From Dimargaris cristalligena (taxonomy: Eukaryota), in contig ML002258.1 of assembly GCA_003614675.1 (NCBI GenBank), positions 1-55,540 of the forward strand: 55,540 bases of DNA. Reading direction: 5' to 3'. Shown here one piece after another: positions 12,001-46,365 of this stretch; the stretch's first letter is position 1, and each line of letters begins with the position of its first letter. The position numbers and the translations under genes are program-made. The notes under the pieces are model-generated. The model ran no database searches. It saw only the letters and a program-made list of their open reading frames with translations, and was not told the origin of the DNA.

Positions 12001-12751
12001 GTGGATGCTGGATTTGTGAATTAGAGCACCGAAAATTTATGGGCACAGCCACCGCCACTACCAATGCCTAGTTCAAAATCAGGTACCCGCTGATACTGCA
12101 GTTAAGACGGTTATAGAGCCAACATTCACAAACCATTCGGAACATTCATTGAACAGCAAATGCCACAGTACCCTTCCTCTCTTTGGTCCCACCGGGACAA
12201 GAGTTTATACATACATATATATATATATATAGTGCCGACCTCTGCCCTATGATTCTCCATTACCCATTCTTCATCTCCGCAAATCAACATTCCTTGTTAA
12301 TCGCTCGGTCCATCTATAGCGTGTCTATTTGATCCCATCAACCACCTGAGCTATCCTCTCCGTTATATCAACCAACACGGCCCACAAATACTGCAATCAG
12401 CTACCTCAATTCCGTACACTTGGTATTTCTCTCCCCCAACCCTTAGCCAAAAATACGACCCATACTGACACCACATTACCATGCTGTCCTGGCTATTCTT
12501 AACTTGGTGGTAGGTGTCCATAATGAGTGGCGCTACTGGAATATGAGGTTAGTGGATCAATCCATCAATGGTCAAGTCCGAGCTCTTCATCAAACTTGCC
12601 CACACTCCAACTGCACTTGACACACCCACTTGCCAGCCTTACCATTTCTGATGCTTTACTATATACTACATCCTTAATATAATCATTAGTCCTATATTTT
12701 ACATAGTTGTACAGTCTAGAAATATTAATCATAATAAATCAACTTGATCTT

Positions 12752-13293
12752 TATTGCCTAAGTTAACTACTCTTAGTCCATCAAGAGTCCCAAGGATAGG
12801 CTTCTAACAGTAGGTGGGGCTTAGACTTAGCTAAGTAGGCTACTATTATCAGGTATAGGGCATAGTACTAACTAATAAAGGCTATGTAGTAGGCATATTT
12901 ACTAGTCAGTATAAGGGGAGTAAGTGTATATAGAGTTTATTAGGGGTAAACTAAGGGAATGAATAAGTTAAGGAATTTAGCTAGTCCTAAAGGGGTCTAG
13001 TTATATATACATAAGGACACTCCAGAGTGAGGTCCCAAGGGAAGGATACTACTAAAACTATAGGATAGATGAATAGGCTAACCAGAAGACTTGGAGGGTA
13101 ACTGGAAGAGTCTAATGGATCAGTACTGGGAGTGAGTAGTGCAAATGGGCAGGTTCTGGCTGGGGGGAGGTTATATGATATGTGATGATCCCATGGTACC
13201 AGGGGTAACTATGGGAAGGTTAATATGGTACTATAAGGCCTACTTAGTCAGATATCTAAGCCAGCTAATTTCACCAGATTAGAAGGTCTGACA
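12752..13293 (-). mobile_element. Solo LTR-like repeat, copy 1 (heavily C->T mutated)
   Basis: Alignable over most of its length to 19337-19920. On the minus strand it starts TGTCAGACC and ends CAATA, decayed from ...AACA. Internal TATATA followed by AATAAA. No CpG. No adjacent PBS/PPT or clear TSD. Confidence 0.75.
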
Positions 13294-14032
13294 GGGTATT
13301 AGCCCAACCCTCAGTCTTAATCCTGGGGCCCTACAAAATACTAATCTAACAGTATTCATGGTATGTAGGTTCAGAGTTATGGGCATAATAAGGGGATTGA
13401 AGGTTGGCAAGATAAGTGAGTTATAGAATTAAGGGTGTTTAATGACCCCACTCCCTCAAATAAGGAAATTAAATAGGGCTGCTGAAGATTGCTTTATTTA
13501 AGGCAAGAAAAAATACAAATAGTGATTCTTTGATCTACTCTAAGATAATTTAATATCAATTAATCTCACTAACTGTCAGTATAGAGAAGATATTGTGATA
13601 CCCCTCCACCCCCCTCTCCACATAGTCACCCTCCCATGACTACCAGTTAACTTACTCTTATTCAGTTCTGGAGATGAGCCTCATTATGGAGAAATAAAAT
13701 TTGTTTATCTGGGCTTACATTAACATTGAATGCACCTGGATCCAAATTGAAACTCAAAAATATGATGGGGTATTGTTGGGGATTGTAGGATTAGTAGACT
13801 TTGCTGACCACCTAGGTCACCTTGGGTATATCACTCAACTAACTATTCACATAATATGGCTGGTGTTGGAAATATAAATATGATGGTAAATGTAAGTACC
13901 TTTAATTGCAACTATAAAGATTTAAAGAAGAGAGATAGAGCTGCAAGGGGCAAAGCTAGATCCCGCGGTTGGTTTTATTGTATTGGAAATAGCAGTAATG
14001 ATGATAAAAACGTTGTTCTGAGTATAGGATGA

Positions 14033-14174
14033 TATGGGTGAAATTCGGCCCAGCTGTATAATGGTTTCAATAATATATATATGGGGAAATATATGGGATA
14101 TTTATTCTTAACCAGTAATTTTTACTTCATCTAACGGATTTTTCGTTGTACAGTTCAGTTGAATCTCTCCCATA
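14033..14174 (+). mobile_element. ~140-bp MITE-like element, copy A
   Basis: Imperfect TIRs TATGGGTGAAATTC...GAATCTCTCCCATA. Homologous to 15631-15770 and to the inverted copy at 20468-20605 (shared core CATCYAACGGAYTTTTCGTT). Confidence 0.85.
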
Positions 14175-14262
14175 TAATCATAGATAGATAATAGTCCCGG
14201 GTATTAGGACAGACCAATCAGAGTAAAGGATTCGGAGGGGCGGGAGAAATGAATTTCCAACA

Positions 14263-15190
14263 GCTGGTGCTCCGTCCCACTGCGGCCACATCCGATCGGG
14301 ACAGGGAGACGTAACCATCAATCCAGCTACTTCGGGGGGAAGGCAGCTTGTCATCTGGACTATGGTTCTGCCATTGCGAACCATCCGTTTCGGGGGCAGG
14401 AGAGGGCTTTTCCACATCACTGGCATTATTACCCATCATATCCAATGCACCATCGCTGGTATGTTCATCCAATGCAACCGAATACGACATTAAAAGCAAG
14501 CAAAATTTGGGATCAAACACCCTGGCAATCCGATCCAACTACAGGGGCTTGCCGTTACTCTGGAACACCATTTGGGTGGCCATCACTTGTTTGGACAACT
14601 GGTGCGATATCAACAACTAAGTTCCAGTGCAAACGGCCCCGTACGCCTCCAGCATAGCCATACAACGCGCATATTCCCATCGGATCGTTTTCTTAAACTG
14701 CATGTACCAGACCGGCCACTGGGCAAAGAGCTGGCTCAGCATAATCATGGTACCCACCTCTGGGCCAAGGGCCATTTGACTCTTGAGAACCCCCGTGGAG
14801 GTGTAGCTAAGCTGAACACCATGGAGGGACAGGTCCGCCATGGCCGGGGTCACTGTAACATGGGCCAGGGTGCAGAAGGAACTTAATGCTTCGCCACAGA
14901 AACCATACGTCCACATGGTAGTCAGGTCGCCAAAGGTGCACATCTTAGACATGTAGTGTTTGAGGCACAGTGCAGCACAGTTGCCCGTGGTGATCATGGC
15001 CATTGCCGGATACACCCACCAAATCCAAATCGCAGTCCTTGAATTTGGCTTCAATATGCATCGCACCAGCATTGAGACTGTTCTCCACTAGTCCCTTCAT
15101 GGCCGTGGTCAAATCAATAATGACCTGGCCTGAGCAGAACCTGTGGACAGTGGCTGGGTTAATGTGCTTCAGTAAATTGTCTTAGTACAT
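14263..15190 (-). pseudogene. PMS1: MutL-family PMS1 (human PMS2) pseudogene, 5' fragment covering the GHKL ATPase and start of the transducer domain
   Basis: Translation from ATG 15190: MY*DNLLKHINPATVHRFCSGQVIIDLTTAMKGLVENSLNAGAMHIEAKFKDCDLDLVGVSGNGH, frameshift at ~14995, then ITTGNCAALCLKHYMSK...TYGFCGEALSSFC...LFAQWPVW...EYARCMAMLEAYG...IDGYVS...GRSTS. These match the PMS1 motifs VHRICSGQV, KELVENSLDAGA, DNGxG, KHxTSK, GFRGEAL and GRS. Stops at 15184-15182, 14619-14617 and 14541-14539; truncated near MITE A. Confidence 0.92.
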
Positions 15191-15630
15191 AATGGGGGGG
15201 GGGATGTGAATGTGGAGGCTGAGAGGCCACAAATGTGAAGAAATGGAGAGTGGTGTATAGGTGGAAATAGAGCCCCGTTGGCCAATTCGGAAATGCGGAA
15301 TTGAAAAGGAGGCCCCCACGTTAAAAAACGGCCGAAAAAGCTGTCTTGGCGCCAAATAACCGAAAATGGTAAACACGGTCCCAAAGTTAGTACCAATCAT
15401 TTAGATTAAAGGTTTATACTATTCTCCAGCTGATAGAAAATAAGCGAAATTAACGATTGACTCACTATTTACCAGTGTGGGGGGCAGTCCCGAGTGATTA
15501 ATGGGTGGTTTGATTCACTGGAGTGGAGCTACAACCGAATGCCCGCCGAGAGTGACAAACCAATATTACTTGTTTAGTATAAGGAATATCGATGTGGATA
15601 ATGTTAATAAAGCACATTTAGTTGAAATGA

Positions 15631-15770
15631 TATGGGTGAAATTCGACCCAGCTGTACAAGGTTTTAAATGATGTGTATGGGAAAATAGGCAGGAGGTTCA
15701 TTTTTAATCAGTAATTTTTACCTCATCCAACGGATTTTTCGTTATACAGCCTGGTTGAACCTCTCCCATA
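15631..15770 (+). mobile_element. ~140-bp MITE-like element, copy B (same orientation as A)
   Basis: TATGGGTGAAATTCGACCCAGCTGTA...GAACCTCTCCCATA, colinear with 14033-14174. Confidence 0.85.
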
Positions 15771-16662
15771 TTTAAAAGATATTTTTCGAAAGGCAAGTAA
15801 TATTAAACTGCGGTAGAAGATATCCGTGTTATTGTAGCTAGCCGAACTATAACCAGCAAACGATCTAACCAGCCTATAATCGTCGATTTATGTCCCCTTC
15901 ATTCCCAACAACCCTATGGATAGACCAAGACCTACTCCTCAGATCTGTCCAGGCAATTGTCTGACCTAAAATAGTCACCAGCAGTCAAGCATCATTGTAT
16001 AGCAGGTATTCCAGGGCTAATGGTACCTTCGGATGCACAATAGAGCTAGCCCTGGCGTGTTTTACTCCAAATGTTCAACAGTTTGCTCATAAGTGTATAT
16101 AGGCGAGTCTCTATTATTTTAAACGGCCATGAGCTTTGGCAATAGTAAATGCTGCGCCTTGTAGTAAAATGGTGGACCTGAACGCACTAGTCTATCGACA
16201 CACCTACCAAACGCATACAACTCGTTTGCCATTCCATACCACTCGCTTCGCATTTTTTTGAGTAAACCACCGGTATTATCCATAGCCAAGCAGACCAGTT
16301 GGACATTCGAAGGCAGGATCAACTTAATTGCCTTCCCAAATCAAGTAAGGGCAGTCAGCTCAACATCGTTGAGGCCGTCGTGGATAAAATATAATGCCGC
16401 TTTAGTTGAATTTCTACTTAGTAGTAGTCGAGGAATATACCAGATTTGATTACGTAACAACTAGTCGGCGGCGACCACCATGAAACAACAGCAATAATAA
16501 TAATAAAAAACGTAGTGAGAATAGTGGAAAATAAGAGTCAACAAAAGAGAGAGAGAGAAAAAAAGAAGAACGGGGGCAACTACGTAAATATATATAGGCA
16601 TGGGCGTACGTGGGTAGGAAGACGATGGACTAGGCTGGTAAAATAGGGGGGGGTGATGGGAT

Positions 16663-17870
16663 CTATTTGTGAGCGAGCTCCGCGCCCAGTTTGTAGTTGA
16701 GAATCTTATCCCAGTCAATCTTGTTGCGAGTGACGGGCAGGTTCCGTCGCAGACCCTTGAAGATGGACTCCGACAGCTGGGTGTATGTGTCGTTGAGGGC
16801 AAACTGGTACTGCTTTTCGGACGTGCTGATTTGCTTGACCAATTGCCGGGCGTACTCCTTGATTTGGCTACGGTCCACCAGGGGGCCCACCGCATCGGTC
16901 GGAACGGTGAATTCCTTCGTCGAGTTGAGCTGGATGTTGCCGTGTTCGTAGTAATGCACCACCACATGGGCCCGGCCTTTAACTTCGCCCGACGCCAGGT
17001 TCACCGTCCATATGGAGCGCCAGCGACCGTTCCAGAAGTTCTGCGGACTGTATTTGTTGCTCACAATTAAAATGGTCAGAATCTGGACATCATCACCATC
17101 ATGCCCGGCACCGGTACGACCAGCACCGCTATCCTGTTCGTCGCGGGCGTGGTTTTCATGTTCACCTTGGTGGTCGGAGTTCGATTGGGCCGAAGCCTCA
17201 CTGCCGCCATTGATGACCATCACTGCGCCTTCGGGGAAATGCTCGCTAGCGTATTTGGACACGGCCTCGTCCACGACGGCCCGCAATTCTTCGGCGGAGC
17301 TTTCGGCAATGTGGGGCTGGGCATCGGTGGCGATTTGGCGCAGGTGATCGAATTTGAAGATTTGCTTGGAACGGGGGTCAATGAAATGGTCTGCGTCCGC
17401 ACGGTTGTGTTTGGAAATGATAACGGCCCCATCGGTGTCGGGCAGCGTGACAGTCAGTAGCTGTTCGGTGTTGTATTCTTCCAGCACCGGGGTAATGCCC
17501 ACTTGCAGGGCTTCGTCGTTGTTGATGATACCACGGATGTCTAGCAGAAGTGAGTAATGAGCCGGGGGTGGTTTATAGTAGTATATAAGCGAAGGGGAGT
17601 ATGAGTATACGGAGACCCCAACGATATCCCTTCAGCCTCAGCCCGAATGCCCCATCCTTAGGGTTGGTCTATTCAACATGTACCGACTCCATATCAAAAG
17701 TCGGGCACCGAGACTAGCCGAGTTTGAAGGGTAAGTATGGAAGTCATGCCAAGGCTCCATGGGGCCAACCTACCATTGAACACATCGTTGACCTCGCCAG
17801 GCGGGCTGCTCAAAAGAAACCCAGAGGCGATTTTAATCTTTTCTTCGACCGACAGTTCAACGTCACTCAT
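16663..17870 (-). CDS. CAP1: F-actin capping protein alpha subunit, 2 exons (17870-17774, 17540-16663), 324 aa
   Basis: FLLSSPPGEVNDVFN|DIRGII, NKYSPQNFWNGRWRSIW, VHYYEHGNIQL, FKGLRRNLPVTRNKIDWDKI. GTAGGT/TAG intron in phase 1. Confidence 0.97.
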
Positions 17871-19336
17871 CTTGGATAGGATTAGCGGCGGAGATGTAAG
17901 CAAAAATCAAAAACTAATAGTAATGAAGTAGCTAGGAAATGTAATGAGCTGGTATGCGGAATGCAAACTTGAGTTTGGGCAAAATATGGAAAGGGGAAGG
18001 GAGCAGATGGGAATGGGAGTAGTAGCGGCGGAATTCACTGCAGAAGCAACGACAAACAATAGCCCCAGGTAAATGGTCAGCCAAGAGAGTCAGTTGACCC
18101 CACAGGCAAGCAACAAGTAGCCAAGGCAGGGGGAGGTGGATTTATTGTGATGAGGAGGGGGCCAGGCACTGTGATGGGAGTATAGTGGAGCGGAGAGTGC
18201 ATCAACGACTCCAGAATGGTTGGAACTGGGGAAATGGTGCTAACAGTCAGCATAGAACTCACTGGGGAGAGATTCGATGGCCACAGTAGGGGCGACTCCG
18301 AAATGATTCCTAACAAATTTAGGTTTGTAGTTCTGGGGGTGAAAACGGATCATAACAGTCCTAATAGCAATTGGCGTTGGCGAACCACCCTCCATGGCCC
18401 GGTTTAGGAATACGGAAGATGGGGGTGGATACCATCCGTTTTTATTTCCGTTGTGCAGGTTTGTACTCCCGCAAAGAGAGGGTACAGGTGCAATGTTACA
18501 CGGAGATACAGCCCTATAAGAAAGCACCTTGAGTGAACACACTACCTGCTATTATATTCAATACTGCCAGCCTAGACTCCCTATGAAGGTATTGTGCAGT
18601 TCCATTAGAAAATAGCCCTGCCTACAGATCTCAAGGTTGGGATATTTACAGGCCTGGGGAGAGAGATTTGGTAGAATATTTATTGACTAACCTCTGATAC
18701 TCACTGTTCATGGCTACCCCTTTAAAAACCCAAAACTCCCCCATTCAACAGGGGATTGCAGTGGCAAACCTCCCACATGCCTCAAAGTCATACTTGCCAA
18801 GGTTCTTGGTCTAACATGAACTAAATAAAACAGGAAAACCATCTTTATAGACCCACATTTAACCTTATATTGTTCTTCACCCCCCTATCATATGATTCCA
18901 GGATTGTGTATCCACTGGGATGCAGCATGAATGGGTAAATATAAGGGGAGATATATGCACATGGATAAGGTGCAGGAGTTTGACATCTACTCCAAAATTG
19001 AGCATTATGGGTAGCCTAGTGGTTCAGCTTCATTACACCTGTCCAATGGGAGCAGTGGTACAGCCTGGGTAGCCCAATACTATAGTTTAGACATAATAAC
19101 TCAGCTTGTTATTATGAAACAGCTGGCTGGGTTTGGTCAAGGGCCACATGGCTAAATATTGAGTTGTAAGTTGTAATATGGGAGTAGTTCAATAAGGCTG
19201 TATAATGAAAAATCCATTTGATAAGGTACAGTCATGGCCAGTAAAAGTGAGACACCTAGTCTTAGTGTAAAAAAAAATAAAAAATGCCTATTTCCCAATT
19301 TGATGTATCTACTTATATATATATAGCTATTTATAG

Positions 19337-19920
19337 TGTTACCCAGGTTAACCACTCTTAGTCTGTCAAGAGTCTTGAGGATAGGCTTCTAACAGTAGAT
19401 GGGGCTTGGGCTCAGCCAAGCAGGTTACTAGAATTAGGTATAGACACAGTACTAACCAATAAAGGTTTCAGCATAGGTATAGGCAAGGGATATACAGTAG
19501 GCATACTTACTAGTTAGTATGGGGGGGTGAGTATATATAGGGTTTATTAGGGGTAAACCAGGGGAGTAAGAATAAACTAAGGAATCTTACCAGTTCCAAT
19601 GGGGCCTAGTTATATATATATAGGGATACCTCTGGAGGGAGGTCCCAGGGGAAGGATATTACTAAGACTAAGGTATAGGTAAATAGGCTAACTGGATGAC
19701 TATTAGTATCTGGAAGACTCTGATGGTGACCAGAAGAGTCTTTGGATTAGTACTTAAGTGATTAGTATAAAGAGGCAGAGTCCAGAAGGGAAAGGGTTAT
19801 ATGATATAGAGTAGTCCCATAGTACCAGGGATGACTATAGGAAGGTTAATATGGTACTATAAGGCCTAATAGGGATGGACACTACAGTATCTGGATTAAG
19901 GAGGATTAGATGGTCTGACA
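19337..19920 (-). mobile_element. Solo LTR-like repeat, copy 2
   Basis: Minus strand begins TGTCAGACC and ends GGGTAACA (TG...CA termini). TATATATA at ~19611-19622, then AATAAA at ~19548-19543. Homologous to 12752-13293. No CpG. Confidence 0.8.
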
Positions 19921-19984
19921 ATTGCAACACCCATTTTTTTTTAAAAAAAACCCTTATGCCAGCAAGAGCAACTCTTCCTCCTCC

Positions 19985-20248
19985 TACCCCTGTAATTTGT
20001 GTGGTAAAATATACCAGTTTTGGTAAGGCTTGACTAAGCACACAAAATTGCAATATCCCAATAGACACTATGCTTATGCTAAGTGTGACCTGGAGTTTGC
20101 TGGAAATTTGGAATACCAAAACCATTTAAAGATCCACAAACCTAAGAAGTATTTACACTGTAAATTTTGCCATCGGAAATTTATTTACAATCTGTCCTTC
20201 CAACTTCACTTGAAATCCCATACTGAGGAGAAAACCCCCTCTACCTGA
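19985..20248 (+). pseudogene. Decayed C2H2 zinc-finger gene fragment (3 fingers)
   Basis: YPCNLCGKIYQFW*GLTKHTKLQY / YAYAKCDLEFAGNLEYQNHLKIH / HCKFCHRKFIYNLSFQLHLKSH keep C-x2-C-x12-H-x3/4-H spacing. There is a TAA at 20024 and two ligand positions read Tyr (20054, 20075). Confidence 0.8.
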
Positions 20249-20467
20249 ACAATGTGTGAAGAAAAAAACATCTGACATGAAATATCTTACGGGCCGCAGG
20301 AATACTTTAGATACAAACTATTGTCACACTTCCTTCTGATTTATCAATAAATATTATTTGTCGCAATGATTATAGTAGTCACCCCTGTGTTGAAGTCCAG
20401 TGCACTGGTTAACAACCTATTGACCGGGCATGGTCATCAACCAAAACTGATGGGCAGCAAGGGTGTA

Positions 20468-20605
20468 TATGGGAGAGGTTTTGCTAAGCTATATAACGAA
20501 AAGTCCGTTGGATGAGGCAAACGTTGGTAAAAATGGATCCGACGTCTATCTTCCCCTGGAAATATTATTTAAAACCTTCTACAATTAGTCCCGATTTCAC
20601 CCACA
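20468..20605 (-). mobile_element. ~140-bp MITE-like element, copy C (inverted, more diverged)
   Basis: Reverse complement reads TGTGGGTGAAATCGGGAC...CCTCATCCAACGGACTTTTCGTTATATAG...AACCTCTCCCATA, matching copies A and B. Confidence 0.8.
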
Positions 20606-21007
20606 TTAACTTAGGCGAATAGTGTGGCCACATGAAGGTGCTGGATTTTGATCTGCCAGCCAAATTATATAAAGTAATGTTGAAAAGAAGCCACAGCAGT
20701 GGTCGATTATTTTTAGTGTATTGTAGCATTTGTCACATTTTATTGTTTTAGTTAAATACTGTGCACCTACTAAACCAGGCCGTTTACTAATTATTTTTTA
20801 GATTGCGATATTCGAGCTAATCTATAATGTGCCTTCAGTTAAATACATTTTAGAAAAACCTATAGGATAAATAATTGTAGATAAAGCCTTTGAAAATAAT
20901 AAACCGGCAGAATAAATGGTTCAGGGAAATGATAATAAGGCTACTGGTGCACTTTTGGGTGTGAAATATATATATATATAACGAATTGGCCAGATGACCT
21001 AGGTGGC

Positions 21008-27000: not shown

Positions 27001-28111
27001 GACCGGTACGCACATCAGTACAGGGGATGTTTTGACCGCGGTTACCGTACTTCATTTTGGAGGTAGTCGCACCGGCCGCTAGGGCCAGGAGCTGGTGGCC
27101 TAAACAGATACCGAAAATAGGCACCCGTTCCTGGGCCATGACCCCCCGCAGGCGCTCGACTGTGATGGCCAGGGTAGTCGGGTCACCCGGCCCGTTACTG
27201 ATGAACAAACCGTCGTATTCGAGCTCTTCGGTGAGGGTGAAGTCGAAGTCCCAGGGGACCACATGCAGCTCCACCCCGCGTCGCACGAAGCAGCGGATCT
27301 GGTTGTATTTCATACCCACATCGACGGCCAGGATCCGCAGGGGCTGTCCGTTAGGACGGGTCCGCATGGGGGTCGCTACTTCGGGGGCGTAGGTGGTGGG
27401 GGTTTTGTGAGCAACCTGAGCGACCAGGTTGGTCCGGTTGGGATCAGACCAGGACACGTTGTGCAGGGGCGTCATCCAGTCCTCTTCAGTGGGACCCACC
27501 ACAGGGCCGGCCTCAGACGTAGGGGGCGCGGTCGAGGCGGTAACGTTGGCAGCCTGGACGGCCGCCATGGGTAGGAGCAGTTTACCGAGCATCACACCCT
27601 GCTGGCGAATTTTCTTGGTCAGGGCCCGGGTATCCACGCCGTAGACGGCCGGGATGTTTTGTTCCACCAACCAGGCGGATAGAGAAGACTCGGCTAGGTA
27701 ATGCGAGTAGTCCCCGGAGTAGACCCCCACGACCAGAGCGGCCACGTGGATCGAATTCGACTCGAAATACGCCGGCAGGTCCTTAAGCCAGTGGTCGACG
27801 GCCGTACGGGACGGCACACCGTAGTTGCCGACGAGGGGGTAGGTCAGGACCAGGATTTGACCACGGTAGGACGGGTCAGTCAGGGACTCGGGGTAGCCCA
27901 CCATGCCGGTCTGGAATACGCATTCGCCGGAGACGGAGTGGGTCTCGGCACCAAAGCTATAGCCCTCGACGCTGAAGCCGTCTTGGAGGACCAAAGTAGC
28001 CGGGGTCGGGGCGTGGCTGGCGCTGGGATTGGCGGGGGCCCCAGGCTTCAGGGGGGACTGTGCCACCACATTGCTGGAATGGGTGGAGGTGGTAGTAGGA
28101 ATGGGGGACAT
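21008..28111 (-). CDS. URA2: CAD-like multifunctional pyrimidine synthesis protein (GATase-CPSase-inactive DHOase-like-ATCase), single 2367-aa ORF
   Basis: GATase motifs [23 protein letters not shown] motifs [19 protein letters not shown] and [15 protein letters not shown]. ATCase motifs [26 protein letters not shown] and MHPLPR. The DHO region reads [10 protein letters not shown] instead of LPGLIDVHVH. Confidence 0.99.
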
Positions 28112-29665: not shown

Positions 29666-31918
29666 CCTTTAATAATCCGAAGGTCGCGGGGAAATGGAGC
29701 CTATGGATTAAAAAAGGGAAGAGAGAAAAAGAGTATCTAGGGGGGCGGTGGGACGCATTCTTATATAGTAAAGGGCGGCCGGGGACGAAGAAGTGCAGCC
29801 CAAAGCTCCGCCTTGGTAGCTTGGATTGGGTTGGGGTGGGGGAAGAATCGAGTGGCGGGGACTTCCCTCCCATTTACTCCCATTACTCGGTGGTCCATCT
29901 ATATGCGCATATAGTCGGTTCTTACGCCGGCTATTGGAAGGTGGAAGGAGACGTTGGGGATTTTATTTTTAGTGGTTAATATACCTAGTTAAGATAATGA
30001 TGGTGGTGCCCTCTTGTTCTCTCCATCACTGGCCTCAATTTCCCACCATATCCCTAGTCCGGGAACCGGATATATGCATGCATAGAGAAGAATGGGTTGG
30101 CAAACTCACCAATACCACCACCCCCCGCTCAAAATGGCGGTGATTCTTAGCTGAAACTTAAGGATAGTCGTTTAATAAACCACACAGCCAACTAGGAGTG
30201 TGTGTTACAGCCCAAGTGGGGATTGGATCAGCTCGACTAGGTGTGTGGGAACTGTGACGATAATGGCTTGGCCCGCGCGGATCGTCTGGCTACCCGTTGT
30301 TCACCAGAGGAAGAAGAGGAAGCGATATGCAAAAAATAAGGCGGAGTCGGCGAAACGGAGGGAGGAGAGCAGAAATAATCGGATGTTAGAGAGATGTATT
30401 ATTCGCCCCACCACCAACTAAACTGGACGACGAATCGACGAACCACCAATAACATGGCTCGGTAATAAAACGAGGCGCTAATGAAGACTAGTTAACGGTC
30501 TCAATCACTCACTTTCCTTACCCGCTGAAACGAATCCCTTCCCTTTCTCCTCCTCCTCCTCCAATCTCTTTCGAAGAGGAAAGAAGGGGAGAGGGGACCT
30601 TATAAAATCCCACATTATTTTTGAAACACACCTGCACTCACCGGGGTCGTACGACTAAAATTTCGGGAATTTCGTTAATTATGAAAACTAAGGGGGGGAA
30701 GAACCCTACCCCACCATTACCAAAGATAAATAGATTATCCGAAATTGTTACAGATAAATGAAGGGACAGGACGGGAAGGAGGAGGACCCGGTTGTTTCGA
30801 TAAGTAAAGTATACCACTATACCCTGCCTTCACGCGACACCAATAGAGCTGATATCTTGGTGAGAGTATTCCAAACGGTAGGCAGTTCTGCACTTAAAAG
30901 GAAATATTGGTTACGGTGTTTTTGATTAATTAGGAATCAGGCGGTTTGGTAAGTTGGAGAAGAAGAGAAGGCGACGGAGGAAGAGGGTTTTGGTACTTTC
31001 CCCACTTCAGCATGACCGGAGAGATGCACTTCTGTTTGGGCGGGAACCCCCCTTTTCTACGTGTGTGTGTTACCCCCATTAGTGACTGTTCGAAATCAAA
31101 TCAGTACATGACACGGTGGAGGAGGGGGGGATAATTGGCCGATATCGCTTATCGGAACTGTTTCAGATGGGCCGGGAAATTCGGTATGGGGGATGGTTGT
31201 TACATCAAGAGAAGTCCCTCAGAACGGCAAGATCACTGCGCGCAATCCTCCAGAATGACTCGATGACCTAGTTGACATCCCCTCCTCACCTTCTTATCGC
31301 ACTACATAAACCGGCTATATCAGCTTCACACAGCAAAAGGGCCCGAACAATAGACCTCTAAATCGGGGTAATAAAGGTATTAGGCCTGCATAAGTTACGT
31401 GATAATATTGAGGGTTTGTTTAGCCCGATGGGAACCCAACCAAATCAAAAGGGTGGTTTTTGGTTTGGAAGGCTGACCTGGAACCGTAATGAATGCCGTC
31501 ATAGTTTGGGCTAGGGCTAGGTATCCCCACACCCCTCATTAACCATTAATCATTGACATATGCAAGTCATTTTGATACAGTTGGATTACCCAGCCAACTT
31601 TCCCCCCCTAATACAATTACAATTGAGGATGGCTTTATGTATAACTGGAATATGCTAACTGGTGTGGGCACCATTGCTTCAGGTAGTACTTGAGGTAAAA
31701 ATAAAAAATACATAGCTAAAATAAAATATAGTATAGTATGGTATGGGCTTAGGGCTAAGGAATTATAGGATTAATTTGCCCTCCCTGACACCACTTGGGA
31801 CCATAAACCTGGATTATATATATAACGAAGACGTTATGCGCTACTGTTAAATGACCGCCCCGACAATGTCACTCCCGGAAACGAACGATTACGCTAGCAC
31901 GGGTGCGGGAAACACGGT

Positions 31919-33541
31919 TTAAAAGTCGCGCTTGCTCAACCAGCGCTCAATCATATCGGCTGAACTCTCGGGCTGGTCGTAAGGGACCATATGTCCGGCA
32001 CCAAAGACCCGCAGGAAAGTGAAATTCTCGTGGGAGCGGACCTCGCCGACCTGGAGGTCCTCGGTGGGCTTCCTCTTGTTATTTGAGCGGTGGTGACGCG
32101 ACGAGCGGTTCTTATTATCGCTCTTGCCAGCGGACATGGTCCAGGCGCGATCCTTGGCGGCGGCGAATTGTTTCTGACCGGCCCAGGACAGCTCAATCGT
32201 CCAAGCCTTGTTACCATACCAGTTGCAGATGAAGTCAGCATCACCAGCGTAGACCAAAATACGAATACCCGATTCTAGTAGTTCAGGCAGGTAGCGCATA
32301 TAGGGTTTCATCCAATCGCCGGCCAGGTTGAAGCCCATGTTGACGTTCATATTACAGCCCTGGTATTTCTCCACATCGGCTCCCAATTCCGCCTTGACTT
32401 CGGGGCGGTTGAGGTACTTCTCGATGGCACCGATGATGGGGTAGCATAAGCCGCCGCTTTCACAAGGTTCCCGGACGTCATAGGGGTTCAAACCGGACTC
32501 TTGGTAGGGTCCGATGATCCCGCGGTTACAGGTGAAGGAGGCGGGCACGCAGCTCAGGGCATTCTCGTACCGGTAGCACTTCTCAATCTTTTCGGCACAC
32601 GCGGGGTAGGCATTCTCCATGCGACGGCAGGCCGACTCGGAAAGCACCGAGCCGTAGGAGGAGTCGCAGGCCATCTTGTGGTAATATTTATACTGAACCA
32701 GCTCATCAACCAATCCGTTACCAATGCCCAGACTGTCCAGGTTAATGACCTGCACGCCTTTGCCCTTCCAGAACTGGCCCACCAGCGAGGACGTATCCAA
32801 CAGCTGGCGATTTTCGCGGAAGATCTTGCTGCCGATGGCCGGGACGTAGTGTCCGCCGTAGGACTCGCCAAACACATGGAAGGGCAGACTGGCGTATTGG
32901 TTGAACTGCTGGAAGAAGAGTTGTAGGAAAGCGTACACGTCTTCGCTAGCGCTGACGGTGTTGAACACGCCGCGGCCGTAGGAGTAACCCACGTTGACGG
33001 GCTGGTCTAGGAAGATAAGGTTGGCGTGGTTATTCCAGGAGTGGGGGTTGTTGACCACACCATCGCCCTTGGCGTTGACGCGACAGGGTCCCAGTTCCAT
33101 AAGCAGACCGGTCATGGACGAGCAGCCGGGGCCACCGTTCAGCCATAACAGTACGGGGTCTTCGGCGGGCCGGTCGCGGGACTCGAAGAACCAGAAGTAA
33201 AAGTGCTTGTCCGAGTCGACGTCCAAGTAGCCCGAATACTGCTTGACGGTCGGGTCGCACAGCTTGGGCTGGCGAACGCGGAGCTTATATTGGGGGAACG
33301 CAGTGTGTTCAGCCACCATGAGCCACTTGTCGTCATCCGAACCCGTGGTGGTCCGCGGAGGGGTCGCCAAAGGGTTGGCGGGACCGCCGAGCATGGGCGA
33401 GTGGTTGGGGCTTTGGCCCAGGTGGGGACGGTTGTTGAAGACCATGGTTTCCTCCGTGTAGGAGAAGACGAACTGGTCGGTGGCTAGGGCCACCTGGCCG
33501 AGCAGGCAGGTGGCGGCCAGCAAGACCGACGCGCGAAGCAT
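31919..33541 (-). CDS. PRC1: Serine carboxypeptidase S10 (carboxypeptidase Y-like) precursor, 540 aa, intronless
   Basis: Signal peptide MLRASVLLAATCLLGQVALA, WLNGGPGCSS, catalytic GESYGG, GDADFICN and GAGHMVPYDQP. Confidence 0.96.
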   Translation of the reverse strand: MLRASVLLAATCLLGQVALATDQFVFSYTEETMVFNNRPHLGQSPNHSPMLGGPANPLATPPRTTTGSDDDKWLMVAEHTAFPQYKLRVRQPKLCDPTVKQYSGYLDVDSDKHFYFWFFESRDRPAEDPVLLWLNGGPGCSSMTGLLMELGPCRVNAKGDGVVNNPHSWNNHANLIFLDQPVNVGYSYGRGVFNTVSASEDVYAFLQLFFQQFNQYASLPFHVFGESYGGHYVPAIGSKIFRENRQLLDTSSLVGQFWKGKGVQVINLDSLGIGNGLVDELVQYKYYHKMACDSSYGSVLSESACRRMENAYPACAEKIEKCYRYENALSCVPASFTCNRGIIGPYQESGLNPYDVREPCESGGLCYPIIGAIEKYLNRPEVKAELGADVEKYQGCNMNVNMGFNLAGDWMKPYMRYLPELLESGIRILVYAGDADFICNWYGNKAWTIELSWAGQKQFAAAKDRAWTMSAGKSDNKNRSSRHHRSNNKRKPTEDLQVGEVRSHENFTFLRVFGAGHMVPYDQPESSADMIERWLSKRDF

Positions 33542-35118
33542 GGCGGAGAGGAGTAGGGAGAGGTGGGGTAAGGAGCTGGAGGAGTTGAAGGACTAAAACT
33601 AGAACTGGGGCTAGAATAGGGAAGGTACTGTGGTATGTAAAAGGGGGGAAAGTGCGGAAAGGGAAGAGAGGTAAAAAGTTCAGTGGAAAGAAGTACAGGA
33701 TATGCTATGATATATAAAGAGCAAAGCTGATTAGGGTCAAGGAACAAGGACAGAGAGAGAGGGGTCTGGCTGTATGCGTGGTAACCTAACCGCAGTCCGC
33801 CCTTATTAAATAGCCTTAGTGGGGGTGCATAGAGCGAGTGGCTCTGGCTCTGCTTAATGGTGTCCCTAGCAATCCCACCATCCCTACTCTCCCAGTTATG
33901 CAGCGTCATGGGAATGGCCGAAGCCCTTTCGGAGTGGATCCAGGGGCGGCGGCCTATTATCCCCTCTGCTTTCCCCTGTGGGAGTCCGGCAATTAAAAGA
34001 GAGAACGGGTGGCTGACGCGGCCGCTTGCTTGCTCCTTCCTCCTCTTCTATTCCCTCAAAATATACTGCCTTGCCTTATTTCCCTTGTATGGTTTCTAGG
34101 CCATGCCCACCAAAGCCGCAGTGGGGGTAGTGAGTGGATGGTGTGGTCAAGTCAGGTGACAAGTAGAAATCCCTCATGTGAGTCCAGAATTGGGATAGAC
34201 ATATTACTTACTGGCAAGGGCCAGGATGGAACCACACTAGGCGAACCCTAAGTTCCATCACCATCATCAATTAATACGGCTGGTTTTTGAGATAGCGTGA
34301 CTGGTGGATCATCCCCATTACAGGAAAGAAGGAAGGATTGTGGATGATGTGCGCGGAATAACCCCTCCACTGTATATCCACTATAGCGCGCAAGTTCGGC
34401 GAAGCCCCTCCTCCTCCTACTGCATCGTTTGATCCGCAGTGGTCTTTCGATCAACGCTGATCCTGAATAAAAAGCCACAGTCAAAGTGGCCTCTATATTG
34501 GCTAAGCGATATAATACTCTCAGTCCTTTAACCCTTTCCGCTGACTCATTTCAGTTGAACAGATACCGCTGATTATTACGATACACAATTGCAGCATTTC
34601 ATCAAACCGGCGGCGTTTCCCCATCTTAAAGCTATCCATCCCGAGTGGTTAGTGCGGTGGACCTTCTTAGTCTTGATAAACCCGCCCAGGTAGAACACCA
34701 CCACCCTACGATTTCGGAGAATAAAGTGTGTATATATACAAAAAGGAGCGGCTGAAGCCACTGGGCGGCCCCGTCGTCGTATTGGAGAAGGTGGAATTGG
34801 CCGTCTGGGTGTGCGAAGTAAACGATGCTAGTTTCAGCAACCGGTGCTCGTCGTTGCCCACACAACCCCCACTCTATACCTCCTCTGAATGTGGAAAACG
34901 GGAGGAATGTCCGAGCTCTCCCCAGCCCACCTCAGTCGAAGGCACTCCTTATTATTTATGGGAATAAGCTTCCCCGCCGAATTTGCGTATAGTAGCTCTC
35001 CCCATTCAGTCAGGCATTTTTAACGGCTCTCCCTCCCGCCACATTTCGCATTGAGTTCCTGCTCCCAGCCCCATTAGTTGCCCCTCGCTACTGTATTGCT
35101 CTTCCCCACCTTGTTCTT

Positions 35119-36956: not shown

Positions 36957-38241
36957 ATATCCGATCATCTATCTTATTTTACATTGATTAAAGAATATAA
37001 ATTCTGCAAACCAAACCGCAAAGTATAAAATAAAGGATTATTTTTATTAAATAGACTCAGGATGAGGTGTGATCTTGAGGCCAAGTGGAATCAATGGACA
37101 AAATTGGGGACACTAATGATTCCTCATATTATGGTGAAATCACCACAATTTTTGAAAAAAAGGAAAAACAATAAAAAATGAGAGAGAGAGAGACAGATAT
37201 ATGTATTTAAATATAATACGAGAGAGGTCGCGGGGACAAAATTAGACTGGCTATGTAGTAAATAATAAGAACGAGAAAAAAAGTAAATATTGGAAGATAC
37301 TATAGAACGTCCAACCACGCACACACACACATATAAACCAACTTCATAAATCAAAAGAAATAACAGCTGGAAAACAATGTAAATGGATACACAAGAGGTG
37401 AGGGCGGGGAACATAAACCAGTGGTGAGGAATGGAGTTGAGGTTCGACGTTTTTAACCCCATTATTTACAAGAAAAACATATTGGAATCGTGTCCTTTAT
37501 ATCGCTCATTCTACCAAAGACCTCAATCCTCTCCCTCCCACCATACATTACCCCTTTATACCAAAGTTAAGGTAGGAGGAAATAAAAGTGGGAGGGGGAT
37601 ATTGGGGACAAGGTCACTTGTAGAAGGCACGAAATAAATATAAAAAGGGAACAATACGACCAATTCAATATGAAAAATTAAACGACACGAATGAGAAAAG
37701 GGGGGAATAAAGAGATATTTCGCCACATTCTCCAAATGGGCATCTCCCATATATACATAAAAATATAGGAGAAAAAAGAAAAAATCACAACAGCCGCCAG
37801 GGGAGTGGAATGGAAGAGATCCAGGCCTGAACACATAAATAAAGAAATGAATGGTTAAATGCCGGATGCAGATGAAATGGAGGATGATGTGATAATGCCA
37901 AGGGGGTGTTGGTCACGCACACATATATAAAAATACATACATGTGGAACCATGATAAAATGCCGAAAACAGGAGAAGCTTGGGTGGAAGAGACAAAATGC
38001 AACGAAATAAAGAGAAAGAATGGACATGTCAACTTTTCATAAAGACGCGTATTATATAGTATACATATATATATCTGTATCGAGAAACCGACTAAATAAC
38101 TAAACTAGAGAAACACAGGGGGGAAGTAGATGGGAAAAAGAAGCCAAGGAAACGGAGCGATAGCTACGGGGAAATATATCCCGACAAAGATGTTAGAGGG
38201 GAGTGGGAGGATAAGAATCATATTGCTTAGCCCACCAGGAT

Positions 38242-40522
<2,281 letters not shown>

Positions 40523-44088: not shown

Positions 44089-46365
44089 TTATTCAATGAT
44101 AACCCGGTCGTGCTGTGGTGGGTGGGGTGCCGATGAAGTACCTGTATAGTCTTTATCTGCAAGTTGATTGCTTTCATCGTCGTGGTAGGCCACATGGGCC
44201 AGGCTCCATTCCTCGATATGGCCATTTTTATCCGCCGGTTGCTGGGTTATTCCCCGACTTGTCGGTGCCATTTCTACCAGGCTATCGTCTCCTCCTCTGC
44301 ATCCATTGGTTCGGCTGTCGCTACAACCGGGGGTACCACGGCCATCCTCTTGGCCAGAGTTGTTGTCATCGTTGGGCCTGGTCTCACCATAAGATCCCGT
44401 TCCGGGGGGCAATGTTGGACGTTGATATTGGTGTTGGTGTAATGGGTTGGCCGGCGGATAACTAAGCCGGGCCGACGACGATCCATCCACTCGCCTATGG
44501 CATCCCTGACAGCTCAGTCCATCCGCCGCCAGCTTGACACAAAATTGGGCCAAATACTCCTCACGGTCAAAAAGGCTACCCCCCCCCCAGATCAACGAAT
44601 AGGAAAAATAATAGTCGGGTAAATAGGCGATCAATCATTAATCAATTGTAACTTATGCCTCCGCTTGAATGGGAAATTACGTCGATACAACTGGCTAGTT
44701 TCGTTATTTATACCAAACGCACAGTTAGAAATATTCAATTGTAAATTATCCTTACTAGCCGTAGAGAGGTGGCCCGATGCCGATCCAGATAAATACGTTT
44801 ACGGCGACAATGGTCTGGGTAGAGTATTGGCCATATTTTCGAAGTGCAAATTATAAATTGGCATTCGGATTAACACACTATGTAGTAAGGGATGCCTCAG
44901 ATTAGACCAATATTATATATATATATATTATTAATAGACACTTACTATAACATTCATAATGAATCGACCCCACGGACTTGTGCAAGATTTAGGCATCATA
45001 TTTTTTTAAAAAACAAAAACTTATTTAGCGTCGTAAAGCAGATCCACATTCCAATAACTAATGAAAGTCTCGCCCATAGCCTATTAATCCCCATATTTAC
45101 TGAGTTTGATCGGACATTGCAATGGTACTTACTAAATAACGGCCCGAAATACCCCCATAATAGCCTGTGCAATTACTAGTAGGATAAACGCGATCGAACC
45201 AAACGTCGTTTCTCGGTAATCATTGTAGGTGGCCTCGATATGGCGACAGAGGTAGTTGAGGCACTATAGAATGAGTGAGTAGTAGTAGTAGGGGTTTACA
45301 GATGTATTTCTAAAAACTCAGAATAACTAATCGTATACCCCGAAATGCAGGATGGCTTCACAGTATTTGCCCCAAAAACCCCAACTGCTGGAAAAGTAAT
45401 TAATCGGTTCACAGTAGTCCAAAAAAAAAATCGGCTTACCAATAAAACGATAATGTGGATCATCACATCAACAACACACAGGGCGGAGTACATTAACGAG
45501 TAAACGCAGTTTCCGGGATTGGGGTAATGGGTGGTACTCACTAGACGCGGCGAAGCCGTGGCACTCACCAAAACGAGGGCGGTAGGCACGCCTAGTAGGA
45601 TAGGGAACAGGTAAAACCGTCTACTCTGCCGTAAGGGGTACCGTAGGACGAGTAGCCAGTAGAGCAGGTACAGTCGGTAGGCTAAGATGGTCATGTACAA
45701 ATCAAGCCCTAGGCCATACGCCAGCCAAGGGCTGATGAGTACGCACACGGCCCGCGGTAGATTGGGACGTCCCGTGGTGAGGGAAGTCAACACTTGGCAG
45801 ACCCAGAATAGAATGCCACCTAAGGGGGATATAGGAAAGTAATAGGAGGGCCGGCCGCCGTAATCATTTAACATTCCGAAGGAGATGGTGGTATGAGGAC
45901 CTATCAAACCTGGTGGTTTGTTATTAAATTACTGATGCCTCCCGCGAGGTGGGGTTTATTTTTCCAAACATATAAAAATGGGTGTATAGTAGTAGTAAGA
46001 AGGAGATGGCACACCTTTCTTCTTTACTCCGAATCGTAAATTATATATCGATATATAAATATATATATCGTCTATCCTGGCGTAGATATGATTAAAGTGT
46101 AGGGGCATACTCCACATACCGGTCACTTACAAGCTAGCATAAACCCCAGTAGGCGCAAGTTCCGGGTGCGAAAGGGCGGGAAATGGTGACGGCGGAGCAC
46201 GATCCATCCGAATATCACCACAGTGAAGAGGTGCCAGGCCACGCCCGAGACCACCATGACCAAGTCCCACACCCCAAAAAGGTCAACCATGTCGCTTTCC
46301 TCGACCACTATTACATTGCCGGCGGGGGCCGGTAGCGTGCCATCCTCCGTTAATGAAGGTGTCAT
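44089..46365 (-). CDS. Multi-pass (7TM, GPCR-like) membrane protein, 5 exons (46365-46131, 45819-45440, 45263-45153, 44877-44756, 44575-44089); in-frame TAA at 44853-44851, possible pseudogene
   Basis: A series of hydrophobic helices (AWHLFTVVIFGWIVL, GILFWV, WLAYGLGLDLYMTILAYRLY, FYLFPILLGVPTALVLV, YSALCVVDVMIHIIVLL, FGSIAFILLVIAQAIMG, TIVAVNVFIWIGIGPPLYG|YLFDREEYL), then a polar tail. Phases fit only with a weak GTATTT donor at 45152 and one internal stop. Confidence 0.65.

What the first reader, a model, noticed from the sequence alone, without database searches (positions are those of the whole stretch)
12581..13963. RIP-like C->T hypermutated domain 1: ~1.4 kb with zero CpG around a solo LTR, with CpA->TpA changes
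Seen: by my reading there is no CG dinucleotide between 12581 and 13963, while the genes in this window are CpG-rich. The two LTR copies differ mostly by transitions. Many are CA/TA or TG/TA pairs (copy2/copy1: cccagg/cctaag, aaccac/aactac, ctcagccaagcagg/cttagctaagtagg, taacca/taacta, gtgagt/gtaagt), alongside reciprocal CpG decay (ctgtc/ccatc from ccgtc). Known: CpG loss follows 5mC deamination, whereas CpA->TpA in repeats is the hallmark of RIP, described mainly in filamentous ascomycetes. Inference: this apparently non-Dikarya fungus has a repeat-targeted C->T mutagenesis system acting on both CpG and CpA, which would be a notable genome-defence finding.
Basis: partly seen in the sequence, partly recalled or inferred. 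Interest (0 to 1): 0.78.

Follow-up and report, generated by a model that had tools for sequence, protein, structure and literature searches.

The report
CpG-erased islands around fungal repeat copies
Two old copies of a very abundant LTR-like repeat in a Dimargaritales-like (non-Dikarya) fungus each sit in a 1.4-1.7 kb island that has lost every CpG, which looks like DNA-methylation damage; an extra RIP-like CpA-to-TpA bias is likely but not proven.

Summary
No CG occurs between 12581 and 13963, where about 35 are expected (P about 1e-14 to 1e-16). A second island (18503-20173) is also CpG-free. Each island holds one copy of a roughly 540-585 bp, very high-copy, TG...CA-ended element. The two copies are 80% identical, with 79 transitions and 19 transversions. 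By DED1 similarity the host is Dimargaritales-like (Kickxellomycota), not Pezizomycotina.

The CpG loss is regional, not repeat-limited. About 1.7 kb of flanks covered by single-copy contigs is also CpG-free, and CpA+TpG there rises (o/e 1.20 v 0.98) while TpA stays at background. Other repeated DNA in the window keeps its CpGs. That pattern fits 5mC deamination in methylated islands, not duplication-triggered RIP.

A CpA/TpG-to-TpA excess does exist:
- 30 such differences between the copies, against 11-17 expected.
- TpA o/e 1.65 in both copies.
- 5 of 6 non-CpG transitions against another isolate.
- 2 of 2 polarity-resolved cases run C-to-T.

The weaknesses are real. Polarity is unknown for the repeat pair. 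Equal RIP-index values occur in ordinary coding DNA of this contig. No genome was available to build a family consensus or look for DNMT genes.

Interest is moderate.

The parts
12581..13963 (.). CpG-free island 1 (the finding): 0 CG in 1383 bp, with sharp edges
   Evidence: about 35 CpGs expected, P0 about 1e-14 to 1e-16. CpG counts per 100 bp fall from 2-5 to 0 at both borders.
12755..13293 (+). A1: relic copy of a very high-copy LTR-like element (539 bp, TG...CA ends)
   Evidence: In one search, dozens of distinct contigs per site and summed word depth hundreds of times that of the flanking contigs lie on it, and assemblies break at its borders. TpA o/e 1.65, CpA+TpG o/e 0.75, composite RIP index 1.00.
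12581..12754 (.). Left flank covered by single-copy contigs, CpG-free
   Evidence: Contigs 12300-12786 in all 4 runs show 0 differences. CpA+TpG o/e is 1.33 over 12581-12755.
13303..13902 (.). Right flank covered by single-copy contigs, CpG-free. A short part (about 13700-13820) also has a diverged paralogue elsewhere in the genome.
   Evidence: covered by unique-depth contigs; TpA o/e 1.04, CpA+TpG o/e 1.09. Six differences from run X5, five of them listed. The window carries the A/T allele at all five.
13903..14234 (.). Repeated block that includes B1 (14029-14176, a MITE-like 145-bp element). Island 1 ends 60 bp into this block, and the rest keeps its CpGs.
   Evidence: 8 CpGs, o/e 0.85, composite RIP index -0.38.
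18503..20173 (.). CpG-free island 2 (companion domain)
   Evidence: 0 CG where about 43 are expected.
19337..19920 (+). A2: second relic copy of the same element (584 bp), in direct orientation, 80% identical to A1
   Evidence: The 5' border at 19337 is marked by loose ends with random upstream sequence. TpA o/e 1.65, composite RIP index 0.87.
19175..19228 (-). B3: truncated B-element fragment inside island 2. Both CpGs that the other B copies keep are lost here.
19960..20250 (+). Degenerate tandem C2H2 zinc-finger remnant across the right border of island 2. The finger outside or on the border is intact; the two inside the island are broken.
   Evidence: weak zf-C2H2 matches (E about 1e-3); an in-frame stop; Tyr where the first zinc-binding Cys is expected. 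No homologue was found.

Best explanation
Island 1 and its twin are silenced-transposon islands.

Shown: a copy of a very abundant LTR-like element sits in each, and every CpG is gone over 1.4-1.7 kb, including several hundred bp of neighbouring DNA covered by single-copy contigs.

Inferred mechanism: each element copy attracted cytosine methylation that spread into its flanks, and spontaneous deamination of 5-methylcytosine then converted every CpG into TpG or CpA.

Probable extra layer: cytosines in CpA context have also been converted to TpA at about five times the rate of other non-CpG cytosines. This shows mainly inside the repeat copies and among recent differences from another isolate. 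I read it as a weaker non-CpG component of the same methylation-and-deamination process, or a RIP-like activity riding on it. I do not read it as classical RIP triggered by sequence duplication.

My confidence in the CpG core is about 0.8. For the whole two-layer statement it is 0.45.
For: - CpG loss: 0 CpG where about 35 and about 43 are expected.
- Flanks: the pooled flanks covered by single-copy contigs (1701 bp) have CpG 0, TpA o/e 1.02 and CpA+TpG o/e 1.20. Background (14,988 bp) has CpG o/e 0.70, TpA 1.00 and CpA+TpG 0.98. By my own arithmetic on those figures, the CpA+TpG gain roughly equals the number of CpGs lost.
- Family members: they keep CpG where the window copies have CA, TG or TA (loose-end consensus before 12762 in three runs and behind 19398).
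- Still in progress: isolate X5 retains CpG at 13636 and 13763 inside island 1.
- Faster change in islands: window v X5 differences are denser on island flanks (8 in 1811 bp) than outside (3 in 4085 bp); odds ratio 6.0, P = 0.005.
- CpA layer, repeat pair: 30 CA/TG-TA differences against 11-17 expected for C-to-T:T-to-C rate ratios of 1-3 (P from 4e-3 to 2e-6). This needs a CpA rate of about 5 times other C-to-T.
- CpA layer, isolates: 5 of 6 non-CpG transitions between isolates are CA/TG-TA, against an expected share of 0.30-0.33 (P about 0.011-0.017).
- Polarity: at 13761 and 14655 both X5 and a paralogous contig carry C while the window has T before A.
- Composition: both repeat copies have TpA o/e 1.65.
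Against: - No 5mC measurement and no DNMT gene could be examined.
- Polarity of the A1/A2 differences is unresolved. If T-to-C is assumed, rates are flat at 22-28% in all contexts.
- The flanks show no long-term TpA gain.
- The depletion is lopsided: TpG o/e is 0.56-0.62 but CpA o/e is 0.94-1.06. The element is strongly G>C skewed (27% v 14%), so part of its odd composition is intrinsic.
- Composite RIP indices of 0.73-1.06 also occur in CpG-rich coding stretches (33151, 45251, 27351).
- Among the best-supported private changes listed, none of the four GC-to-AT changes is at CpA, and 19728 looks like TpA-to-TpG. That table, however, favours sites that do not vary in the family.
- The two adjacent changes at 13761/13763 could be one gene-conversion event.
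- The DNA outside the islands includes coding sequence under constraint, which inflates the density contrast.
Confidence: 0.45

Rival explanations
1. CpG-only methylation decay. The islands are methylated and have lost their CpGs, but there is no special CpA-to-TpA process. The family's master copy was already rich in TpA and poor in TpG, and the CA/TA excess comes from hot spots, small samples and a genome-wide spectrum.
For: - The flanks show pure CpG decay with TpA at background.
- The composite RIP index is non-specific in this contig.
- The element has an intrinsic purine/G skew and lopsided TpG v CpA values.
- A context-free model fits the pair data if T-to-C exceeds C-to-T.
- Near-unanimous family alleles show A-to-G private changes in the window copies (12980, 19634, 19728).
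Against: - That fit requires C-to-T to be far rarer than T-to-C. By my own hand fit to the counts (no tool run), T-to-C would be about 4.5 times C-to-T, implying an equilibrium GC near 80%, whereas local non-coding DNA is about 40% GC.
- With C-to-T:T-to-C ratios of 1-3, the 30 CA/TA differences exceed expectation (P from 4e-3 to 2e-6).
- 5 of 6 non-CpG isolate differences are CA/TG-TA.
- Both polarity-resolved cases are C-to-T at CpA.
Confidence: 0.3
2. One reading: a genuine RIP-like genome defence. A homology- or repeat-triggered enzymatic C-to-T mutator acts on CpG and CpA of repeated DNA in a non-Dikarya fungus, with leakage into the flanks.
For: - Transitions dominate (79:19).
- Both copies meet RIPper-style thresholds as I recall them (product above 1.15, substrate at most 0.75, composite above 0). 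Seven of the 9 windows in the contig that do so lie in the two copies.
- There is a CA/TA excess.
- Of 6 copy-by-site cases where family members show an ancestral CpG, 2 have gone on to TpA (my reading).
- Differences in copy 1 cluster by strand: 14 runs against 21.3 expected, P = 0.015.
- Precedent: composite RIP index above 0 in 24.2% of the Zoophthora radicans genome (PMC11105155, passages read).
Against: - About 1.7 kb of flanks covered by single-copy contigs is fully CpG-erased without any TpA gain.
- The 145-bp B repeats and an 822-bp segment with an 84% paralogue are not affected. That segment has composite index -0.94 and CpA+TpG o/e 1.51.
- GC of the copies (41%) is no lower than the neighbouring non-coding DNA.
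- The strand-run signal is absent in copy 2 (P = 0.28) and is confounded by a G-rich 3' part of the element.
- A kingdom-wide screen found RIP-like signatures only in ascomycetes (PMC12543289; abstract and sections 8-9 read).
- RID presence is untested.
Confidence: 0.2
3. Editing of retroelement cDNA by an APOBEC-like deaminase during retrotransposition. The copies would then have arrived already hypermutated on one strand.
For: The composition is strand-asymmetric: C 14% v G 27%, and TpG o/e about 0.6 v CpA about 1.0.
Against: - It cannot explain CpG erasure in the flanks.
- It cannot explain in-place changes since the isolates split.
- Differences between the copies are about equally frequent per site on both strands: 33 C/T and 46 G/A.
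Confidence: 0.05
4. No mutational process in place. The islands are CpG-free because the inserted DNA was born CpG-poor, or the gap is an assembly artefact.
For: None specific.
Against: - The sequence is reproduced with 0 differences by contigs of three runs, and with 6 differences in 621 bp by a run of a second study.
- The flanks are covered by single-copy contigs and show a CpA+TpG gain that roughly matches the CpG loss.
- Family members and isolate X5 keep CpGs at sites that have decayed here.
Confidence: 0.03

Closest known systems
Repeat-induced point mutation (RIP) of Neurospora and other Pezizomycotina (RID-dependent, CpA-to-TpA)
   Same: Transition-dominated divergence of repeat copies, TpA excess with CpA/TpG deficit in the copies, and many TAA/TAG trinucleotides.
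   Different: - The host is Kickxellomycota.
- CpG is the primary and completely erased target.
- The effect covers flanks that are not repeated and spares other duplicated DNA.
- There is no GC collapse.
- RID and premeiotic timing are untested.
CpG-context (TpCpG) hypermutation of transposons in Pucciniomycotina, and CpG signatures linked to Masc2/Dnmt1-class enzymes (Horns et al. 2012, PMC3318451, abstract; Amselem et al. 2015, PMC4352252, abstract and section 12)
   Same: CpG-directed C-to-T decay centred on transposon copies in a fungus outside the RID-bearing ascomycetes.
   Different: A different phylum. A trinucleotide preference could not be tested here. An added CpA component is suspected. 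The erasure here is total and regional.
Tuber melanosporum transposons with a dual CpA + CpG signature (Amselem et al. 2015, section 12)
   Same: Both dinucleotide contexts appear affected in the same elements.
   Different: Per that paper, Tuber is an ascomycete with a RID/Masc1-like gene. Nothing is known here about the enzymes.
Composite-RIP-index signal in Entomophthorales (Zoophthora radicans 24.2% of the genome; eLife 2024, PMC11105155, passages)
   Same: A RIP-index-positive signal in repeats of a Zoopagomycota-grade lineage, put forward with caveats.
   Different: That report rests on the index alone, which one search shows to be non-specific in this contig. Here there is also pairwise, family-level and between-isolate context evidence, but only for one locus.

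Membership tests
Canonical RIP | C-to-T / G-to-A transitions dominate the differences among repeat copies | tested here: met
   79 transitions against 19 transversions over 488 aligned columns. Direction is resolved at only 3 sites, none of them in the repeat.
Canonical RIP | Dinucleotide preference (CpA to TpA), giving a high TpA/ApT ratio and a low (CpA+TpG)/(ApC+GpT) ratio | tested here: inconclusive
   The indices are 1.75/0.75 and 1.61/0.74, and CA/TA differences number 30 against 11-17 expected. However, polarity is unknown, and coding windows reach an equal composite index.
Canonical RIP | Confined to duplicated DNA, and hits duplicated DNA in general | tested here: not met
   1701 bp of flanks covered by single-copy contigs are CpG-erased. 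The B repeats and the 822-bp segment with an 84% paralogue lack the signature.
Canonical RIP | Strand-coordinated tracts of mutations within a copy | tested here: inconclusive
   Runs test: copy 1 P = 0.015, copy 2 P = 0.28. The test is confounded by local base composition.
Canonical RIP | A RID/Masc1-type methyltransferase homologue in the genome; action before meiosis | not testable with these tools
   No genome is held, and no experimental data exist here.
5mC-driven CpG decay of methylated transposon islands | Loss specific to CpG, far below the local background | tested here: met
   0 CpG against about 35 and about 43 expected.
5mC-driven CpG decay of methylated transposon islands | A reciprocal gain of TpG + CpA | tested here: met
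   In the flanks, CpA+TpG o/e is 1.20 against 0.98 in the background while TpA is unchanged. This is not met inside the repeat bodies (0.75), which is the anomaly under discussion.
5mC-driven CpG decay of methylated transposon islands | Centred on a transposon, with spreading into neighbouring DNA and sharp borders | tested here: met
5mC-driven CpG decay of methylated transposon islands | 5mC present, and DNMT1/DNMT5/DIM-2-type enzymes encoded | not testable with these tools
   No genome and no methylation data. No paper found or 46 gave DNMT or 5mC data for Dimargaritales; only some of the listed papers were opened.
Solo LTR of an LTR retrotransposon | 5'-TG...CA-3' ends with a short terminal inverted repeat | tested here: met
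   Both copies begin with TG and end with CA. The family 5' consensus and the 3' end share a 5-base inverted terminus.
Solo LTR of an LTR retrotransposon | A 4-6 bp target-site duplication | tested here: not met
   None at either copy. This may be due to age and mutation.
Solo LTR of an LTR retrotransposon | Full-length relatives with an internal gag-pol region flanked by the same sequence | not testable with these tools
   No genome is held. There are no internal retroelement domains in the window and no ORF homologues.

The most novel reading that the evidence does not exclude
A Kickxellomycota (non-Dikarya) fungus has an active, transposon-centred cytosine-to-thymine mutator that hits both CpG and CpA: a RIP-like genome defence outside Dikarya. 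It would still be operating, since differences between isolates are about six-fold denser in the islands, and all 7 listed island differences are transitions, 6 of them at CpG or CpA/TpG sites. This would mean RIP-like defence is either older than Dikarya or evolved convergently from a different methyltransferase or deaminase.
Probability: 0.2. Interest if true: 0.8.

Novelty: new member of a known kind. Interest (0 to 1): 0.5.

Why it matters
A review I read in part (PMC13297926) describes early-diverging fungi as having almost no 5mC. A kingdom-wide screen (PMC12543289) found RIP-like signatures only in ascomycetes. Total CpG erasure with sharp borders around transposon relics, apparently still in progress between isolates, is indirect but strong evidence that a Dimargaritales-like fungus methylates its transposons. 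The accompanying CpA/TpG-to-TpA bias makes the question 'is there RIP-like mutagenesis outside Dikarya?' directly testable in this organism, using a defined repeat family and defined loci.

Tried and rejected
- Whole genome: not held. A family consensus, RIPCAL-type directional counts and a DNMT/RID search were therefore impossible.
- Other family copies: two exact-word scans of the metagenome contig collection, using words shared by both copies, found nothing.
- ORF-level relatives of the repeat: none.
- Relatives of the zinc-finger remnant, wanted for polarity in the flank: none.
- Earlier notes of this scan: nothing by place, sequence or words.
- Rfam and tRNA scans of the region: no match, so there is no evidence for a SINE or structured RNA.
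- Pfam on 10 ORFs in or next to the islands: only weak C2H2 hits on one, plus one marginal chance-level hit (E 0.061). Pfam on 6 other ORFs, including those of the duplicated 14.2-15.1 kb segment: none.
- Composite RIP index as a discriminator: rejected as non-specific, because a coding window tops the list.
- Strand-run test: inconclusive.
- Majority-rule polarity from the 30-letter glimpse of other copies: by my manual reading it gave about as many changes in each direction, and it cannot handle parallel hot-spot mutation.
- B-element fragment in island 2: 2 of 2 CpGs lost, one CpA-to-TpA, one CpT-to-TpT. Too few sites to use.
- Bewick et al. 2019 (recalled reference): not held in the library.
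- Supplementary tables of the papers cited were not seen. They may list DNMT repertoires or RIP scores for Kickxellomycotina.
- No RNA holder was listed among the sequencing runs.
Full report
**1. The observation**

The window is a complete 55,540-bp contig with 48% GC and 2586 CpGs (o/e 0.79). CG dinucleotides start at 12579 and then not until 13964. A second gap runs from 18501 to 20174. These two gaps (1385 and 1673 bp) dwarf the third longest, 329 bp.

With the local non-coding CpG density (0.0255 per bp), 35.3 and 42.7 CpGs are expected in the two gaps (P0 = 4.6e-16 and 3e-19). In 200 block shuffles that keep local composition, the longest gap never exceeded 261 bp. At 100-bp resolution the CpG count drops from 2-5 to 0 at both borders of each island.

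**2. What lies in the islands**

Self-comparison finds one copy of the same element in each island, in direct orientation, with host genes between them. One of those genes is the F-actin capping protein alpha subunit. The two copies are therefore not the two LTRs of one element.

Refined borders are 12755-13293 (A1, 539 bp) and 19337-19920 (A2, 584 bp). Both start with TG and end with CA. The family's 5' consensus and the 3' end form a 5-base inverted terminus. No target-site duplication can be seen. There is no Rfam or tRNA match and no protein domain.

I laid the assembled contigs of four public runs (two studies, same coded organism) on 12300-20700 at 80% likeness or better. Between 3308 and 4917 pieces per run were placed, most of them 80-95% alike. 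Dozens of distinct contigs cover each site of the A copies, and the summed word depth there is hundreds of times that of the flanking contigs. The tool warns that this depth is not a copy number.

Assemblies break at the element's borders. Unique-depth contigs cover 12300-12786, 13303-13902/23, 14234-15261, 15745-16066, about 16.5-19.2 kb, and 19893-20700. So A is a very abundant dispersed family. 'Solo LTR' is a reasonable label, but it is not proven.

A second family, B, is about 145 bp long with inverted ends and looks MITE-like. It occurs at 14029-14176, 15627-15771 and 20466-20606, with a fragment at 19175-19228.

**3. The host**

The DED1-like helicase (38242-40059, minus strand) has its best named hits in four Dimargaritales species: Tieghemiomyces, Dispira and two Dimargaris, at 78-81% identity. 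Kickxellales, Basidiobolus and Harpellales follow. Dimargaritales belong to Kickxellomycota.

**4. The CpG layer is regional and looks like 5mC decay**

The islands extend well beyond the repeat. 12581-12754, 13303-13902, 18502-19175 and 19921-20173 are covered by single-copy contigs, yet all are CpG-free.

| Sequence | Length | CpG | TpA o/e | CpA+TpG o/e |
|---|---|---|---|---|
| Pooled flanks covered by single-copy contigs | 1701 bp | 0 | 1.02 | 1.20 |
| Background low-GC stretches | 14,988 bp | o/e 0.70 | 1.00 | 0.98 |

By my arithmetic on these figures, about 45 CpGs are missing from the flanks and about 45 CpA/TpG have been gained. That is what CpG-to-TpG/CpA conversion predicts.

Three further observations fit decay in place:
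- Other family members keep CpG where the window copies have CA, TG or TA (loose-end consensus before 12762 in three runs, and behind 19398).
- Run X5, from another sample and study, still has CpG at 13636 and 13763 inside island 1. The erasure was therefore completed recently.
- A degenerate tandem C2H2 zinc-finger reading frame crosses the right border of island 2. The finger on the border is intact. The two inside the island carry a stop and substitutions at zinc-binding positions. This looks like collateral decay.

Other repeated DNA is spared. The three full B copies keep CpG at o/e 0.58-1.12. An 822-bp segment (14440-15261) with an 84%-identical paralogue has CpG o/e 0.47, CpA+TpG o/e 1.51 and composite RIP index -0.94. 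So duplication as such is neither necessary nor sufficient for the erasure. This is the behaviour of a methylated, silenced transposon island, not of duplication-triggered RIP.

**5. The CpA layer**

A1 and A2 are 79.9% identical over 488 columns, with 79 transitions and 19 transversions. The transitions break down as follows:
- 12 form six TG/CA doublets.
- 30 are CA/TA or TG/TA.
- 12 are CT/TT-type.
- 11 are CC/TC-type.
- 14 have varying neighbours.

Polarity decides how these are read. If C-to-T is assumed, 30 of 43 CpA sites differ, against 11 of 57 CpC sites and 12 of 70 CpT sites (odds ratio 10, P = 1e-9). If T-to-C is assumed, the rates are flat at 22-28%. Two copies cannot tell these apart.

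A context-free model fits only if T-to-C is several times more frequent than C-to-T. My hand fit to the counts gives about 4.5-fold, which is at odds with the roughly 40% GC of local non-coding DNA. With C-to-T:T-to-C ratios of 1-3, only 11-17 CA/TA differences are expected against 30 observed (P from 4e-3 to 2e-6). The CpA rate would need to be about 5 times the rate of other non-CpG C-to-T changes.

Composition points the same way. Both copies have TpA o/e 1.65, CpA+TpG o/e 0.75, TpA/ApT of 1.6-1.75 and a composite index of 0.87-1.00.

The controls weaken this:
- The highest composite index in the contig (1.06) belongs to a coding stretch with 40 CpGs, and two more ordinary stretches reach 0.73-0.79.
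- The depletion is lopsided, with TpG o/e 0.56-0.62 against CpA o/e 0.94-1.06. The element is strongly G-rich and C-poor on one strand. Part of its composition is therefore intrinsic.
- A runs test for strand-coordinated tracts is weak and confounded: P = 0.015 in copy 1 and 0.28 in copy 2.

**6. Evidence from another isolate**

X5's orthologous single-copy contigs differ from the window at 11 sites. Eight lie in 1811 bp of island sequence and three in 4085 bp outside (odds ratio 6.0, P = 0.005). Caveat: the outside part includes constrained coding DNA.

Ten of the 11 sites are listed, and nine of those are transitions:
- 3 are CpG against TpG or CpA.
- 5 are CA/TG against TA.
- 1 is CC against TC.

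Five of 6 non-CpG transitions being CA/TG-TA compares with an expected share of 0.30-0.33 (P = 0.011-0.017).

At 13761, 13763 and 14655 a paralogous contig agrees with X5. This polarises the changes as C-to-T in the window lineage: two at CpA and one at CpG. Caveat: 13761 and 13763 are two bases apart and could reflect a single gene-conversion event.

**7. Verdict**

The CpG erasure is real and extreme. It is best explained by methylation-dependent deamination in transposon-centred islands (my confidence about 0.8).

A CpA/TpG-to-TpA bias is supported by three independent but small or polarity-blind lines of evidence, and I put it at about 0.6. Whether it reflects weaker non-CpG methylation or a RIP-like activity cannot be decided here. 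Classical duplication-triggered RIP fails the one defining feature that could be tested.

**8. Literature context**

- Badet and Croll 2025 (PMC12543289; abstract and sections 8-9 read) found RIP-like signatures only in ascomycetes.
- An Entomophthorales study (PMC11105155; passages read) reported composite-index signals outside Dikarya, with caveats.
- CpG-context hypermutation is known in Pucciniomycotina (PMC3318451; abstract read).
- A dual CpA + CpG signature is known in Tuber (PMC4352252; abstract and section 12 read).
- My searches listed no paper that I could see addressing this for Dimargaritales or Kickxellomycotina. Only some of the listed papers were opened, and supplementary tables were not available to me.

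Noticed in passing
window 14029-14176 (+), 15627-15771 (+), 20466-20606 (-), 19175-19228 (-, fragment): A 145-bp MITE-like element (family B) with about 30-bp imperfect inverted ends. It is high-copy in the genome according to the laid contigs. Its full copies keep their CpGs, even though one sits right next to island 1.
   Followed up: partly
window 14029-15771: Two direct B copies flank a 1.45-kb segment whose minus-strand ORFs (151 and 106 aa) match no Pfam family. Part of it (14440-15261) has an 84%-identical paralogue elsewhere. That part shows partial CpG decay (o/e 0.47) with very high CpA+TpG (o/e 1.51). It may be a composite mobile element or a segmental duplication.
   Followed up: partly
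window 19960-20250 (+): A degenerate three-finger C2H2 zinc-finger reading frame lies across the right border of island 2. The fingers inside the island are broken and the one on the border is intact. No homologue was found.
   Followed up: partly
window 33151-33700, 45251-45800, 27351-27900: Ordinary CpG-rich stretches, at least two of them coding, have composite RIP indices of 0.73-1.06. This warns against using the index alone in this genome. The ORF at 45296-45874 (192 aa) has no Pfam match.
   Followed up: no
window 12300-20700 against run X5: Differences from a second isolate are about six-fold denser inside the CpG-free islands than outside (8 in 1811 bp against 3 in 4085 bp). All 7 listed island differences are transitions.
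   Followed up: yes
window 31497-31826 and 37017-37219: These are the next-longest CpG-free stretches (329 and 202 bp). I did not check whether they hold repeat relics.
   Followed up: no
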